From the NCBI RefSeq assembly GCF_009914755.1, contig NC_060927.1: 64,000 bases of DNA, one strand, 5' to 3'. Origin of the DNA: the human T2T-CHM13v2.0 reference genome, Homo sapiens. The translations under genes and the position numbers were made by a program. Positions 39,588 to 63,885 of the stretch are shown here, one piece after another. Below the pieces are notes generated by a model. That model was not told the DNA's origin. It saw only the letters and a list, made by a program, of their open reading frames with translations, and ran no database searches. Within the stretch, counting starts at the first letter, position 1. Each line of letters begins with the position of its first letter.

Positions 39588-39639
39588 CTGAACTCAGGTT
39601 CCAAAAAATTGGATGCAGTGTCCAAACAAGTAATTAGAT
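39588..39639 (-). CDS. DCBLD2: DCBLD2 exon 4 (LCCL start)
   Basis: tctAG / GTATGA; DLITCLDTASNFLEPEFS. Confidence 0.94.
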
Positions 39640-49536: not shown

Positions 49537-49807
49537 ATACTCGCACATTCTTAAGTCCCTACTCTTTCCTGGCATTCCTCCCTTACCTAGAATGGGTTTC
49601 TCATCACCAAAAGCATCCTACCCACTGTTCAAGGTCAAATTCAAATGTCAACTCCTGGGTGTCCCCAGCCAGAAATGATTCCCTTCTCATTTGTTCTTCT
49701 AAGATAACTATTTTCTTGCCATTTAATTATTCTTCACTCAGTAAACATCTATTGAGCACCAAATATGTGCCAGGTTCACTTATCCATCCTCTCACTCCGT
49801 ATGCTAT

Positions 49808-50113
<306 letters not shown>

Positions 50114-50737
50114 CACTCCATATGCTACTATAATTATTTGGTGCTTATATGAGGGGAGGAGATGAATTTTTCTTTCTTTCTTTCTTTCTTCCTTCCTTTC
50201 TTTCTTTCTTTTTTTTTTTTTTTTTTTAAGATTTTTAAATTTTTGTTTATTCACATTGAGGAGAATCTAAATTCTTTTGAACTTATGTATAGATTTCACC
50301 ATTTTATAGTAATAAATCAGTCCTCCTGTGTGTGTGTGTATGTGTGTGTGTGTGTATGTAAACCTCACCTTGCAATATTATTATTTTAAATAGCCACTTG
50401 CATCTTAAGGAAATTAAGAGGACAAAAGAAAAGCTGCTGTTTTGTATGTATCCACATATTTACCAGCTGCTTCCCTGCCGGCAGGTGCTCTGGTTCTGCA
50501 CTGCCTGTTGTCTCTTGCCTGAAAATGGTTGCCTCCAATATTTTGCTCAGTTTTCTGATTGTTTACAGTGGCAGAGGAGGGTAGATCTGGTACCAGTTAG
50601 TAATTGCCAGAGGTGGAAGTCTGTGGATGAAATTTGTATAACATGGAACATTAGTTCCACAGTTAATGCTACTCAATTGGAACCCATGGAAATTATTTTT
50701 TGGTGAAAAGGGCCCATGCGTTATGAAATTTGAGATC

Positions 50738-53360
50738 CAGAACAAAATGAAAAGTCTCTCATGTCTACTTCTTTCTACACAGACACCGCAACCATCCGAT
50801 TTCTCAATCTTTTCCCCACCTTTCCCGCCTTTCTATTCCACAAAGCCGACATTGTCATCCTGGCCCGTTCTCAATGAGCTGTTGGGCACACCTCCCAGAC
50901 GGGGTGGTGGCCGGGCAGAGGGGCTCCTCACTTCCCAGTAGGGGCGGCCGGGCAGAGGCGCCCCTCACCTCCCGGACGGGGCGGCTGGCCGGGCAGGGGG
51001 GCTGACCCCCTCCACCTCCCTCCCGGAGGGGGCGGCTGGCCGGGCGGGGGGCTGACCCCCCCACCTCCCTCCCGGACGGGGCGGCTGGCCGGGCAGAGGG
51101 GCTCCTCACTTCCCAGTAGGGGCGGCCGGGCAGAGGCGCCCCTCACCTCCCGGACGGGGCGGCTGGCCGGGCGGGGGGGCTGACCCCCCCCATCTCCCTC
51201 CCGGACGGGGTGGCTGGCCGGGCAGGGGGCCGACCCCCCCACCTCCCTCCCGGACGGGGCGGCTGGCCGGGCGGGGGGCTGACCCCCCCACCTCCCTCCC
51301 GGACGGGGCGGCTGGCCGGGCAGAGAGGCTCCTCACTTCCCAGTAGGGGCGGCCGGGCAGAGGCGCCCCTCACCTCCCGGACGGGGCGGCTGGCCGACAC
51401 CCCCACCTCCCTCCCGGACGGGGTGGCTGGCCGGGCGGGGGGCCGACCCCCCCACCTCCCTCCCGGACGGGGCGGCTGGCCGGGCGGGGGGCCGACCCCC
51501 CCCACCTCCCTCCCGGACGGGGCGGCTGGCCGGGCGGGGGGCCGACACCCCCACCTCCCTCCCGGACGGGGCGGCTGGCCGGGCGGGGGGCTGACCCCCC
51601 CACCTCCCTCCCGGACGGGGCGGCTGGCCGGGCAGAGGGGCTCCTCACTTCCCAGTAGGGGCGGCCGGGCAGAGGCGCCCCTCACCTCCCGGACGGGGTG
51701 GCTGGCCGGGCAGGGGGGCTGACCCCCCCCACCTCCCGGACGGGGCGGCTGGCCGGGCGGGGGGCTGACCCCCCCACCTCCCTCCCGGACGGGGCGGCTG
51801 GCCGGGCGGGGGGCCGACCCCCCCACCTCCCTCCCGGATGGGGCGGCTGGCCGGGCAGAGGGGCTCCTCACTTCCCAGTAGGGGCGGCCGGGCAGAGGCG
51901 CCCGTCACCTCCCAGATGGGGCGGCTGGCCGGGCGGAGGGCTCACCCCCCCACCTCCCTCCCGGACAGGGCGGCTGGCCGGGCGGGGGGCTGACCCCCCC
52001 CACCTCCCTCCCGGACGGGGCGGCTGGCCGGGCAGAGGGGCTCCTCACTTCCCAGTAGGGGCGGCCGGGCAGAGGCGCCCCTCACCTCCCAGACGGGGCG
52101 GCTGGCCGGGCGGAGGGCTGACCCCCCCACCTCCCTCCCGGACGGGGCGGCTGGCCATGCGGGGGGCTGACCCCCCCACCTCCCTCCCGGACGGGGCGGC
52201 TGGCCGGGTGGGGGTGCTGACCCCCCCCATCTCCCTCCCGGACGGGGTGGCTGGCCGGGCTGAGGGGCTCCTCACTTCCCAGTAGGGGCGGCCGGGCAGA
52301 GGCGCCCCTCACCTCCCGGACGGGGCGGCTGGCCGGGCGGGGGGCTGACCCCCCCACCTCCCTCCCGGACGGCACGGCTGGCCAGGCCGGGGGCTGAACC
52401 CCCCACCTCCCTCCCGGATGGGGCGGCTGGTCGGGCGGGGGGCTGACCCCCCCCCACCTCCCTCCCGGACGGGGTGGCTGCTGGGCGGAGACGCTCCTCA
52501 CTTCCCAGATGGGGTGGCTGCCGGGCGGAGAGGCTCCTCACTTCTCAGACGGGGCAGCTGCCGGGCGGAGGGGCTCCTCACTTCTCAGACGGGGCGGTTG
52601 CCAGGCAGAGGGTCTCCTCACTTCTCAGACGGGGCGGCCGGGCAGAGACGCTCCTCACCTCCCAGACGGGGTCTCGGCCGGGCAGAGGCGCTCCTCACAT
52701 CCCAGATGGGGCGGCGGGGCAGAGGCGCTCCCCACATCTCAGACGATGGGCGGCCGGGCAGAGACGCTCCTCACTTCCTAGATGTGATGGCAGCTGGGAA
52801 GAGGCGCTCCTCACTTCCTAGATGGGATGGCGGCCGGGCGGAGACGCTCCTCACTTTCCAGACTGGGCAGCCAGGCAGAGGGGCTCCTCACATCCCAGAC
52901 GATGGGCGGCCAGGCAGAGACACTCTTCACTTCCCAGACGGGGTGGCGGCTGGGCAGAGGCTGCAATCTCGGCACTTTGGGAGGCCAAGGCAGGCGGCTG
53001 GGAGGTGTAGGTTGTAGCGAGCCAAGATCACGCCACTGCACTCCAGCCTGGGCACCATTGAGCACTGAGTGAACGAGACTCCGTCTGCAATCCCGGCACC
53101 TCGGGAGGCTGAGGTTGGCGGATCACTCGCGGTTAGGGGCTGGAGACCGGCCCGGCCAACACAGCGAAACCCCGTCTCCACCAAAACCAGTCAGGCGTGG
53201 CGGCGCGTGCCTGCAATCGCAGGCATTCGGCAGACTGAGGCAGGAGAATCAGGCAGGGAGGTTGCAGTGAGCCGAGATGGCAGCAGTACAGTCCAGCTTC
53301 GGCTCCGCATGAGAGGGAGACCGTGGGGAGAGGGAGAGGGAGAGGGAGAGGGAGAGGGAG
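50738..53360 (-). mobile_element. SVA body: (CCCTCT)~6, Alu-like domain, ~2-kb GC-rich VNTR, SINE-R truncated after ~150 nt
   Basis: Hexamer 53326-53360, Alu-like about 52958-53325, VNTR about 50890-52950, SINE-R ending GAGACTTTTCATTTTGTTCTG. CpG-rich, hence young (D-F class, possibly SVA_E; subfamily unverified). Confidence 0.97.
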
Positions 53361-53406
53361 CCTTGGGATCCTGTTGATCTGTGACCTTACCCCCAACCCT
53401 GTGCTC
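53360..53406 (+). mobile_element. 47-bp SINE-R fragment in opposite orientation, abutting the hexamer
   Basis: GCCTTGGGATCCTGTTGATCTGTGACCTTACCCCCAACCCTGTGCTC matches SVA SINE-R/HERV-K LTR5 sense sequence as I recall it. Confidence 0.9.
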
Positions 53407-53593
53407 CCTTCTTTCTTTCTTTCTTTTTCTTTCTTTCCTTCCTTCCTTCTTTCTTTCTTTCTCTCTTTCCTTTCTTCCTTCCTTCCTTCCTTCCTTCTTT
53501 CTTTCCTTCTTTCCTTCTCTCTCTCTCTCATTCTTTCTTTCTTCCTCTTTCTTTCTCAGAGTCTTGCTCTGTTGCCCAGGCTGGAATGCAGTC
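53407..53593 (-). repeat. Alu 3' terminus with (GAAA/GGAA)n tail; 5' part of the cassette
   Basis: CT-rich microsatellite, then CAGAGTCTTGCTCTGTTGCCCAGGCTGGAATGCAGT cut off at the TSD. Confidence 0.88.
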
Positions 53594-53899
53594 GAGTTGT
53601 TTTCTTGATGAATCCGTTTGTGTACCTGGGTGTTCCAGTTGAAGTGCTGTATTTACTTGCCCCTTCTATTTCTTTCCATGAAGGCGGCACACACTAGCTG
53701 TTTTTAGTTGGTCACCTTGGCCAACCCCCCTGAATTGTATATTTTAAATAAGGGAATTGTATGGTGTGTGAATTATAACTTAATAAGACTGTTATAAAAT
53801 AAAAAGAAACTATCATAGAATAACAGTGTCCTTTCATATGTAGCATATCTGTATTGATGGGTGAAATAAAGCCTAGTAAAAGAGCCAGGGCTGGCAGTT

Positions 53900-54670
53900 C
53901 GTTCATTTATTCATTCAGCATATATTTAATAAGCATGTGTTATGACCAGATGTCATTCTAGGCACCAGAGATAAAACAAAGAACAACCAGATAAAAATTC
54001 CTTCGTATAGGGAGTATACCTCTGGGTGGGGTGGGGGAGGTAAAAGACAATGTTAGTAAGAAAAAAATACTGTGTTAGAATGTGTATTGTACTTTAGAAA
54101 AATAATGAGAACAAGGAAGTTTTAAAAAGTTAGGGAGTTACAATTTTAAGTACAGTGGTCAGATCAGGCATCACTGTGAAGATGACATTTAAGTAAAACT
54201 CTTAAAATCGGTGAGGGAGTGAGGTGTTAGGTATTTGAATCTGAGAACAGGCAGCGGGAATCAAAGGCCCTGTTAGGAAATGTGCTCAGCATGTTTGAGG
54301 CCACAGTAGACAAGTAAAAGATGAAGTCAGATGAGTAATGGGAAGCTGAATGCTAGAGCATCTTGGAGATAAGGATAGTTGGTAGAGTGAGATGAAACTT
54401 TCACTTTAATAAGATCATACTGACCACTGAATTCAGAGTAGATTGAAGGGGGAAAACAGCAAAAACAAAGGTAAGAAATTTATTGCCGTAATTGAGGTAA
54501 AAGTTGGAACCTGAAATAGAGTGGTAGTAGTAGAGCTGTTAAGATGTAGTCAGATTCTGGTACATGTACATATATATTCGAAGAATTGGCAGCTGAATAT
54601 GAAGCTTGAGAAAAAGAGAGGAGTCAAAGATACACTAAAATTTCTGGACTGAGCAACTTAAAAGATGAAC
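53900..54670 (-). mobile_element. LINE-2 fragment
   Basis: TTCATTTATTCATTCAGCATATATTTA tail and downstream L2 motifs. Confidence 0.7.
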
Positions 54671-63747: not shown

Positions 63748-63885
63748 CTTGTTTATCTATAACAGAGTATGAGGCCAAAAATCCGCGTCCAGAAACATGG
63801 ATTCCACTCATGAACAGCAATGTGATTTCATTGCCTTTTGATTCAATTGAATGGTTCATTTGCAACCCCAGACCACAGTATTTGC
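63748..63885 (-). CDS. DCBLD2: DCBLD2 exon 3 (CUB domain second half); gene continues beyond the window
   Basis: cctAG / GTAATT; [46 protein letters not shown]. Confidence 0.96.

What the first reader, a model, noticed from the sequence alone, without database searches (positions are those of the whole stretch)
50738..53406. Twin-priming inversion appears to have created a new, still mobile SINE-R-truncated SVA variant
Seen: SINE-R stops at ...TTTTCATTTTGTTCTG (50738). The sequence that follows about 20 nt later in the SVA consensus (GCCTTGGGATCC...GTGCTC) lies at the opposite end, inverted and fused to the hexamer (53360-53406). Established: this is the geometry of a twin-priming 5' inversion with a small junction deletion. 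Inference: the founder's inverted part was the entire hexamer-Alu-VNTR unit. It was then transcribed in the new direction, starting within the now antisense SINE-R, and took a poly(A) signal from what had been upstream flank. If so, most of SINE-R and the native poly(A) signal were dispensable for two later jumps, and inversion is a route to new composite elements with swapped 3' ends, reminiscent of gibbon LAVA.
Basis: partly seen in the sequence, partly recalled or inferred. Interest (0 to 1): 0.82.

Follow-up and report, generated by a model that had tools for sequence, protein, structure and literature searches.

The report
Offspring of an inverted SVA retrotransposon
This SVA retrotransposon in a DCBLD2 intron is a single copy made from a now-missing, partly inverted parent on chromosome 7, showing that such a scrambled SVA could still jump once, though it has not founded a family in this genome.

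Summary
The SVA body lies on the minus strand and its SINE-R stops at 50738. A 47-bp SINE-R piece lies inverted against the hexamer at 53360-53406. In natural SVA copies this piece starts 19 nt after the stop point.

The new evidence is in the "flank". The 510 bp left of the SVA (50228-50737) is not chr3 sequence. It is 99.6% identical to chr7:55,198,539-55,199,050. It ends exactly at the SVA junction and carries the only AATAAA of the unit, 18 nt before a T19 tail (poly(A) on the minus strand).

So the window holds a 3.2-kb retrotransposed unit: 47 bp of antisense SINE-R, hexamer, Alu-like region, VNTR, 152 bp of SINE-R, a chr7 3' transduction and poly(A).

The simplest history has two steps. 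A twin-primed SVA inserted on chr7. Its inverted body was then transcribed through the old upstream flank and retrotransposed to chr3. The chr7 site is empty in CHM13.

"Still mobile" and "two later jumps" are not. Both junctions and the transduced block exist only here (plus the chr7 source), so one jump and one copy are documented. A start of transcription inside the antisense SINE-R cannot be told from 5' truncation.

The parts
50169..50208 (.). Left part of the chr3 target (TTTC)n/(TTCC)n microsatellite. Its last 13 nt (50196-50208) plus the first 5 T of the tail (to 50213) form the left candidate target-site duplication, CTTTCTTTCTTTCTTTTT.
   Evidence: The same 18-mer recurs at 53411-53428. 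It is low-complexity sequence, so this is weak evidence.
50209..50227 (-). Poly(A) tail of the retrotransposed unit (T19 on the + strand).
   Evidence: It is absent from the chr7 source, which reads TTTTAT at this point.
50228..50737 (-). 3' transduction of 510 bp copied from chr7:55,198,539-55,199,050. AATAAA (minus strand) lies at 50251-50246, 18 nt before the tail. The next 2 nt (CA, 50738-50739) are shared by chr7 and the SVA.
   Evidence: There are 2 substitutions and one TG-unit indel. This is the only AATAAA/ATTAAA in the 3,202-nt unit.
50738..50889 (-). 5' part of SINE-R (about 152 bp), ending at ...TTTTCATTTTGTTCTG. The boundary with the VNTR is approximate.
50890..52960 (-). SVA VNTR of about 2.07 kb, 78% G+C, 175 CpG.
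52961..53320 (-). SVA Alu-like region.
   Evidence: 98-99% identity to all 39 other places scored (4,020 candidates). Also.
53321..53360 (-). (CCCTCT)n hexamer run at the 5' end of the SVA body. The G at 53360 is shared with the next part (1-nt microhomology at the inversion junction).
53360..53406 (+). 47-bp SINE-R piece in the opposite orientation. It is the remnant of the founder's direct 3' arm, carried here as the 5' leader of the retrotransposed RNA.
   Evidence: It is identical to the L004 copy and starts 19 nt after the SINE-R stop point in natural copies. The junction is unique in the genome.
53407..53558 (.). Right part of the chr3 target microsatellite, with 4 nt (CCTT) of uncertain origin, then the right candidate TSD at 53411-53428.
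53559..53595 (-). 37-bp 3' end of an Alu on the minus strand. The microsatellite is its degenerate A-rich tail. This is pre-existing target DNA, not part of the mobile unit.
   Evidence: Read; 'Alu' is named by recognition, not by a tool. The junction with the right flank has no other full-length match: only the self match spans it among the 40 places scored of 429 candidates.

Best explanation
Window 50209-53410 (minus strand) is one L1-mediated retrotransposition product of about 3.2 kb. Its source was a twin-primed, 5'-inverted SVA that once sat at chr7:55,199,050 (CHM13 coordinates).

Step 1 (inferred): an SVA RNA inserted on chr7 by twin priming. The upstream DNA end primed internally in SINE-R at ...TTGTTCTG, with 2-nt CA microhomology, and copied back to the hexamer. 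The poly(A)-primed arm covered SINE-R from GCCTTGGG to the end. 19 nt were lost between the two arms.

Step 2 (the product is shown, the process inferred): the inverted body kept its hexamer and Alu-like 5' domains but had lost its own 3' end. It was transcribed in its own sense, starting at or upstream of the adjoining antisense SINE-R arm.

Step 3 (shown): that RNA was inserted on chr3 into the (TTTC)n tail of an Alu remnant in a DCBLD2 intron, leaving a T19 tail.

The founder allele is absent from CHM13. It was either lost or still segregates in the population. In this genome the product is a single copy, not a family.
For: - Geometry: the truncated SINE-R end and the inverted 47-bp piece are 19 nt apart in natural copies. 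The inverted piece abuts the hexamer.
- The 510 bp next to the truncation point match chr7 with 2 substitutions and one microsatellite indel. The match ends exactly at the SVA junction.
- On chr3 this block ends in T19 and on chr7 it does not, so the direction was chr7 to chr3 through RNA.
- The AATAAA 18 nt before the tail is the only canonical signal in the whole 3,202-nt unit.
- The chr7 site in CHM13 is a clean empty site: one copy of AAATTTGAGATCCA and no SVA within 1.5 kb.
- An 18-nt direct repeat flanks the unit, and the right copy contains a T5 run where a poly(A) tail could anneal.
- The SVA is young: the Alu-like region is 98-99% identical to all 39 other places scored, and the transduction diverges by 0.39%.
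- Passages of the review PMC4859970 state that SVA transcription can start upstream of the element, that 3' transductions occur, and that only the 5' domains are needed for mobilisation.
Against: - The founder is not observed. Its remaining SINE-R, poly(A) and TSD cannot be inspected.
- Searches of the supplements held for two population studies found neither locus. Those files may be cut or incomplete.
- The chr3 TSD is low-complexity and would match by chance in a microsatellite.
- 4 nt (CCTT) between GTGCTC and the repeat are unexplained.
- The nick site implied on chr3 (T5 followed by C) and the candidate sites on chr7 are only loose fits to the L1 endonuclease consensus. The consensus is recalled, not tested here.
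- A one-step chimeric insertion would give the same final sequence.
Confidence: 0.72

Rival explanations
1. One-step chimeric insertion at chr3, with no founder on chr7. L1 reverse transcriptase primed on the poly(A) of a chr7 minus-strand transcript and copied 510 nt. It then switched template to an SVA RNA inside SINE-R and copied to the hexamer. The other chr3 DNA end primed 66 nt downstream on the same SVA RNA and copied 47 nt until it met the occupied site.
For: The final sequence is identical. The chr7 site is empty in CHM13. There is 2-nt CA microhomology at the chr7/SVA joint. Chimeric L1-mediated insertions by template switching are described (PMC13174262, seen as search listing and abstract only).
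Against: It needs two rare sub-events in a single insertion. It also needs an unspliced chr7 transcript for which there is no evidence here. The minus-strand end (...GAAGG) does not pair with the bases that follow GTGCTC in natural copies (TCTG), so internal priming there has no microhomology. A founder absent from one haploid genome is an ordinary outcome.
Confidence: 0.12
2. There was a founder on chr7, but its inversion arose by a DNA-level rearrangement of a normal SVA after insertion, not by twin priming.
For: The offspring sequence alone cannot distinguish the two routes.
Against: One inversion breakpoint would have to fall exactly at the SVA/flank boundary, because the chr7 match ends at the empty-site position. 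The other would fall 19 nt from the retained piece. Twin priming produces both features automatically.
Confidence: 0.06
3. One reading: a new SINE-R-truncated SVA lineage that made two or more jumps and is still mobile.
For: One jump is documented. The unit keeps the hexamer, Alu-like region and VNTR, and has its own downstream AATAAA. The 5' domains are reported to be sufficient in cell-culture assays (passages of PMC4859970).
Against: Junction k-mers searched with up to 1-2 mismatches occur only here. One search found 16 places, but only this one has hexamer-type bases before GCCTTGGG. The transduced block has only the chr7 source as a second copy: 2 full-length matches of 9, and 2 of 46, where the other 44 cover only the TG-repeat part of the query. 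The transduction is collinear with a single source stretch.
Confidence: 0.05
4. Local post-insertion inversion and deletion of an ordinary SVA at the chr3 locus.
For: Both junctions are unique to this locus.
Against: The truncated SINE-R is joined to chr7-derived sequence that ends in a poly(A) tail, so the rearrangement predates arrival at chr3. No inverted repeat of 9 nt or more relates the flanks, apart from one A/T-rich 9-mer about 700 bp away.
Confidence: 0.02

Closest known systems
SVA copies with 5' and/or 3' transductions (variants listed in passages of PMC3287187 and PMC4859970)
   Same: Non-SVA sequence lies between the element and its poly(A) tail. It traces to one unique source locus and ends at a downstream AATAAA. 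There is also extra sequence upstream of the hexamer, consistent with upstream initiation.
   Different: The 5' leader is the element's own 3' arm in antisense. Read-through was obligatory, because the native SINE-R 3' end and poly(A) signal had been moved upstream by inversion. About two thirds of SINE-R is missing.
Twin-priming 5' inversions of L1 (Ostertag and Kazazian 2001, cited; the paper itself was not read here)
   Same: Two arms from adjacent positions of one RNA lie in opposite orientation, with a small junction deletion (19 nt) and short microhomologies.
   Different: An inverted L1 is assumed to be unable to jump again because its reading frames are disrupted (recalled, not tested). 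Here the inverted non-coding element produced an offspring. The founder itself is inferred, not seen.
3'-truncated SVAs made by premature polyadenylation in SINE-R (passages of PMC4859970)
   Same: An SVA copy lacking most of SINE-R.
   Different: Here the tail does not follow the truncation point. 510 nt of chr7 sequence intervene, and there is no AATAAA or ATTAAA inside the retained SVA part.
LAVA, PVA and FVA composite elements of gibbons, and the MAST2-fused SVA_F1
   Same: The hexamer/Alu-like/VNTR core is joined to a foreign end domain.
   Different: Those ends were acquired by splicing and the elements amplified into families (passages of PMC4859970; abstract of PMC4432496). Here the swap came from inversion plus read-through, the junction has no GT/AG splice-site dinucleotides (read), and only one copy exists.
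Transductions whose source element is absent from the reference
   Same: The offspring points to a source locus that is empty in the assembly. PMC12350158 annotates source elements by presence or absence in the reference (passage).
   Different: Nothing in kind. It only means the founder's structure must be inferred.

Membership tests
SVA retrotransposon | (CCCTCT)n hexamer, Alu-like region and VNTR in that order | tested here: met
   There is collinear homology to natural SVA copies from 53360 to 50738 on the minus strand.
SVA retrotransposon | Complete SINE-R with its own AATAAA directly before the poly(A) tail | tested here: not met
   Only about 152 bp of SINE-R are in sense orientation, plus 47 bp inverted at the other end. 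There is no AATAAA or ATTAAA in the SVA part.
SVA retrotransposon (L1-mediated insertion) | Poly(A) tail and target-site duplication | tested here: inconclusive
   The T19 tail is clear. The 18-nt flanking repeat lies in a (TTTC)n microsatellite and could be chance. No other direct repeat of 9 nt or more was found.
Twin-priming 5' inversion | Inverted 5' arm and direct 3' arm come from adjacent positions of one template, with a small deletion or duplication | tested here: met
   There is a 19-nt gap in 5 of 5 natural copies that matched the regex (7 loci tried). Also read directly.
Twin-priming 5' inversion | The internally primed end abuts the upstream target flank at the insertion site | tested here: met
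   The SINE-R stop point is joined to chr7 sequence exactly where the CHM13 chr7 allele continues as an empty site, with a shared CA.
Twin-priming 5' inversion | The direct arm runs on to poly(A) and a TSD at the founder locus | not testable with these tools
   The founder allele is absent from CHM13, and no other human or ape genome is available here.
3' transduction | The extra 3' sequence maps to a unique locus elsewhere and ends at a poly(A) signal followed by the tail | tested here: met
3' transduction | A source element is present next to the transduced sequence at the source locus | tested here: not met
   There is no SVA within 1.5 kb of chr7:55,199,050 in CHM13. This is consistent with a lost or polymorphic progenitor.
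New mobile SVA-derived subfamily | Two or more copies at different loci share the diagnostic junctions or the transduction | tested here: not met
   One copy only in CHM13.
LAVA/PVA/FVA-type composite | Foreign 3' domain joined by splicing, then amplified to a family | tested here: not met
   Neither the SINE-R side nor the chr7 side of the junction has GT/AG in any of the registers that the shared 2 nt allow (read). The element is single-copy.

The most novel reading that the evidence does not exclude
Twin priming is a recurrent, so far unlisted route by which VNTR-composite retrotransposons lose their 3' domain and capture a new one. Unlike an inverted L1, an inverted SVA stays transcribable and mobilisable. 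On this reading the chr7 founder (probably in EGFR intron 1) or the chr3 offspring still segregates or is active in human populations, as the seed of a SINE-R-poor lineage.
Probability: 0.1. Interest if true: 0.7.

Novelty: new variant of a known kind. Interest (0 to 1): 0.5.

Why it matters
Inverted (twin-primed) L1 copies are dead on arrival. This locus is natural evidence that the same accident need not kill a non-coding SVA. The inverted body kept the 5' domains that cell-culture work found sufficient. It borrowed a poly(A) signal from its flank and jumped at least once without about two thirds of SINE-R. That supports domain-deletion experiments with a germline event.

It also adds "inversion plus read-through" to splicing as a way for composite elements to change their 3' end. 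And it flags a class of copies that annotation pipelines would call "non-canonical" or "rearranged after insertion".

In practice, it predicts an SVA allele at chr7:55,199,050 (CHM13) that can be looked for in pangenomes. It also places a sense-oriented AATAAA with an SVA inside a DCBLD2 intron.

Tried and rejected
- **TSD search.** I looked for direct repeats between the immediate SVA flank (50600-50737) and 53360-54600. None of 9 nt or more was found, and only one stray 8-mer. This was the first hint that 50738 is not the insertion boundary.
- **Splicing as the origin of the SINE-R/chr7 joint.** Rejected. No GT...AG is available in any register allowed by the shared 2 nt, and splicing would not explain the inverted 47 bp. 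A canonical SVA 182 kb away on chr7 (55,381,352) is therefore not needed as a donor.
- **Right-hand microsatellite, Alu remnant and flank as a transduced piece.** Rejected. Only the self match covers the junction. All other hits start at query position 28 or later and belong to an old dispersed repeat at 77-85% identity (40 places scored of 429 candidates).
- **Local inversion at chr3.** Rejected (see rivals).
- **Population data.** Supplement searches for the chr3 and chr7 coordinates in PMC12350158 and PMC10681720 found nothing. Only 3 files and 1 file were held as text, so this says little.
- **Literature on a twin-primed SVA acting as a source.** Nothing found. Hancks 2009 and Hancks 2012 are not held and are known here only through citing passages.
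- **SVA subfamily (A-F).** Not assigned. No labelled reference was available, and diagnostic positions would have come from memory.
Full report
**1. What is in the sequence.**

Read on the + strand, unique sequence ending ...GAAATTTGAGATC is followed at 50738 by the reverse complement of an SVA. The order is about 152 bp of SINE-R ending at ...TTTTCATTTTGTTCTG, about 2.07 kb of VNTR (TRF arrays), the Alu-like region, and the reverse-complemented hexamer run up to 53360.

GCCTTGGGATCC...CCCTGTGCTC then follows in + orientation at 53360-53406. After it come about 150 bp of (TTCT)n/(TTCC)n, 37 bp of an Alu 3' end on the minus strand, and other sequence. BLAST against eight natural SVA loci confirms collinear SVA homology from 53360 down to 50738.

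Two natural SVA copies from the same genome were read directly (L004 and L008). In both...ttcattttgttc(t/c)g is followed by 19 nt and then gccttgggatcc...ctgtgctc tctgaaac. A regex matched 5 of the 7 loci L004-L010, every one with a 19-nt spacer. L006 and L009 did not match the regex and were not looked at further.

**2. The junctions are single-copy.**

- The hexamer/SINE-R junction k-mer, searched with up to 1 mismatch, occurs once in the 3.1-Gb assembly.
- The flank/SINE-R junction, searched with up to 2 mismatches, also occurs once.
- A looser 30-nt pattern found 16 places. The other 15 carry the ordinary SINE-R context (TCGG, TTGG and similar) before GCCTTGGG.

**3. The key new fact: the left "flank" is not chr3 DNA.**

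A search with window 50440-50737 gave 9 matches. Two were full length: the window itself and chr7:55,198,753-55,199,050 at 99%. The other seven were fragments of 62-94 bp at 74-82% identity. A search with 50228-50445 gave 46 matches. Again only the window and chr7 (55,198,539-55,198,758) were full length; the other 44 cover only the TG-repeat part of the query.

Reading and aligning the chr7 locus shows one collinear block, window 50228-50737. It has 2 substitutions (one is a CpG on chr7 read as CpA on chr3) and one TG-unit difference.

On the right, the match ends exactly at the SVA junction. Both loci read GAGATC-CA; chr7 then continues TCACTTTAAG and the window continues GAACAAAATG. On the left, the match ends where the window has T19 (50209-50227) and chr7 has TTTTAT.

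On the minus strand the block therefore reads: truncated SINE-R, 510 nt of chr7, A19. The only AATAAA or ATTAAA in the entire 3,202-nt unit lies 18 nt before the tail. This is the signature of a 3' transduction, and the tail shows the direction was chr7 to chr3 through RNA.

The chr7 site in CHM13 is a clean empty site. It has one copy of AAATTTGAGATCCA and no SVA within 1.5 kb.

**4. What it is.**

The mobile unit is 50209-53410 on the minus strand. It consists of 47 nt of antisense SINE-R, the hexamer, the Alu-like region, the VNTR, 152 nt of SINE-R, 510 nt of chr7 and poly(A).

It sits inside a (TTTC)n/(TTCC)n tract, which is the degenerate A-rich tail of a 37-bp Alu remnant. An 18-nt repeat, CTTTCTTTCTTTCTTTTT, flanks it at 50196-50213 and 53411-53428. 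The right copy holds a T5 run, a plausible annealing place for a poly(A) tail. Because this is microsatellite sequence, the TSD is only weak evidence. Four nt (CCTT, 53407-53410) remain unassigned.

**5. How it most likely arose.**

The stop point of SINE-R (b) is joined to chr7 flank. The piece that starts 19 nt later (c) is joined, inverted, to the hexamer. This is exactly the layout twin priming gives: target flank, reverse complement of b back to position 1, c onward to the end, poly(A).

There is 2-nt microhomology (CA) where the chr7 top strand would have annealed inside SINE-R, and 1 nt (G) at the inversion joint. I therefore infer a twin-primed SVA at chr7:55,199,050 whose body pointed leftward.

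That body still had the hexamer and Alu-like 5' end. According to passages of the review PMC4859970, this is the part required in deletion assays, and SVA transcription can start in or upstream of the hexamer. Having lost its own 3' end, any such transcript had to run into the chr7 flank. It ended at the first AATAAA.

The 47-nt leader is either the real start of that RNA or the point of 5' truncation on chr3. The G before GAGCAC on the minus strand could be a cap-derived extra base or simply part of a TTCC repeat unit, so this stays open.

What is shown: the structure, the chr7 origin of the tail segment, the poly(A) signal and tail, and the empty chr7 site. What is inferred: the founder and the twin-priming event.

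**6. Rivals.**

- A one-step chimeric insertion gives the same sequence. It would involve a template switch from a chr7 transcript to an SVA RNA, plus internal priming by the second DNA end. It needs two rare events and an unattested transcript, and there is no microhomology at the GTGCTC end (confidence 0.12).
- A DNA-level inversion in the founder is possible, but one breakpoint would have to fall exactly at the element boundary (0.06).
- A local rearrangement at chr3 is excluded by the co-retrotransposed chr7 block (0.02).
- Splicing is rejected. There is no GT/AG in any allowed register, and splicing does not explain the inverted piece.

**7.

Three points go beyond the evidence.

- "Two later jumps": the transduction is one collinear chr7 stretch, so only one jump is shown.
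- "Still mobile" and "variant": there is one copy, and no sibling carries either junction or any part of the transduced block.
- "Starting within the antisense SINE-R": this is undecided.

**8. Age.**

The Alu-like region is 98-99% identical to all 39 other places scored, out of 4,020 candidates. The transduced block differs from its source at 2 of 510 sites, or 0.39% (Poisson 95% interval 0.05-1.4%). With recalled primate substitution rates this points to about 2 Myr, probably after or near the human-chimpanzee split. This is inference and was not tested against other genomes.

**9. Comparison with what is known.**

All the following are in print:

- SVA copies with 5' and 3' transductions.
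- 3'-truncated SVAs made by premature polyadenylation.
- Dispensability of SINE-R in cell-culture assays.
- Source elements absent from the reference.

These rest on passages in PMC3287187, PMC4859970 and PMC12350158. LAVA and PVA acquired their 3' domains by splicing (passage in PMC4859970).

I found no paper describing a twin-primed SVA that served as a source, or inversion as a route to a new 3' end. Hancks 2009 and Hancks 2012 could not be read, and bioRxiv supplements are closed. I therefore rate this a new variant of a known kind: one well-documented natural case, not a family.

**10. Side observation.**

A Recep_L_domain exon lies on chr7 + strand at 55,303,141. Combined with recalled hg38 coordinates of EGFR, the founder site would fall in EGFR intron 1, antisense to the gene. 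This is inference and was not checked against an annotation.

Noticed in passing
G000 chr7:55,198,539-55,199,052 (L012 1288-1799): This is the source of the transduced block and an empty insertion site. A receptor L-domain exon lies 104 kb downstream on the + strand. With recalled hg38 coordinates, the lost founder would sit in EGFR intron 1, antisense to the gene.
   Followed up: partly
window 50209-53410: The whole retro-unit lies in the sense orientation of DCBLD2 (minus strand), inside the intron between the exons at 39588-39639 and 63748-63885. It brings a sense AATAAA (50251-50246) followed by an A-run. An effect on DCBLD2 transcripts was not examined.
   Followed up: no
window 53591-53815: The right flank belongs to an old dispersed repeat: 77-85% identity over about 140 bp to the 39 other places scored of 429 candidates. 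It ends in an A-rich stretch near 53800. From memory it looks like the 3' end of an ancient LINE, but it was not identified with a tool.
   Followed up: no
window 49798-50119: An ordinary Alu lies on the minus strand with its T-rich tail at the left. It has a clear TSD: cactccgtatgcta at about 49786 and cactccatatgcta at about 50115.
   Followed up: no
L004 1820-1950 (chr1:8.446 Mb): This natural SVA, used here as a reference, has a first A-run, then about 90 nt of other sequence containing AATAAA, then a second A-run. It looks like an ordinary short 3' transduction.
   Followed up: no
G000 chr7:55,381,352-55,381,730: A canonical SVA Alu-like region (98%, minus strand) lies 182 kb from the founder site. 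It is not at the founder position and is not needed for the model.
   Followed up: no
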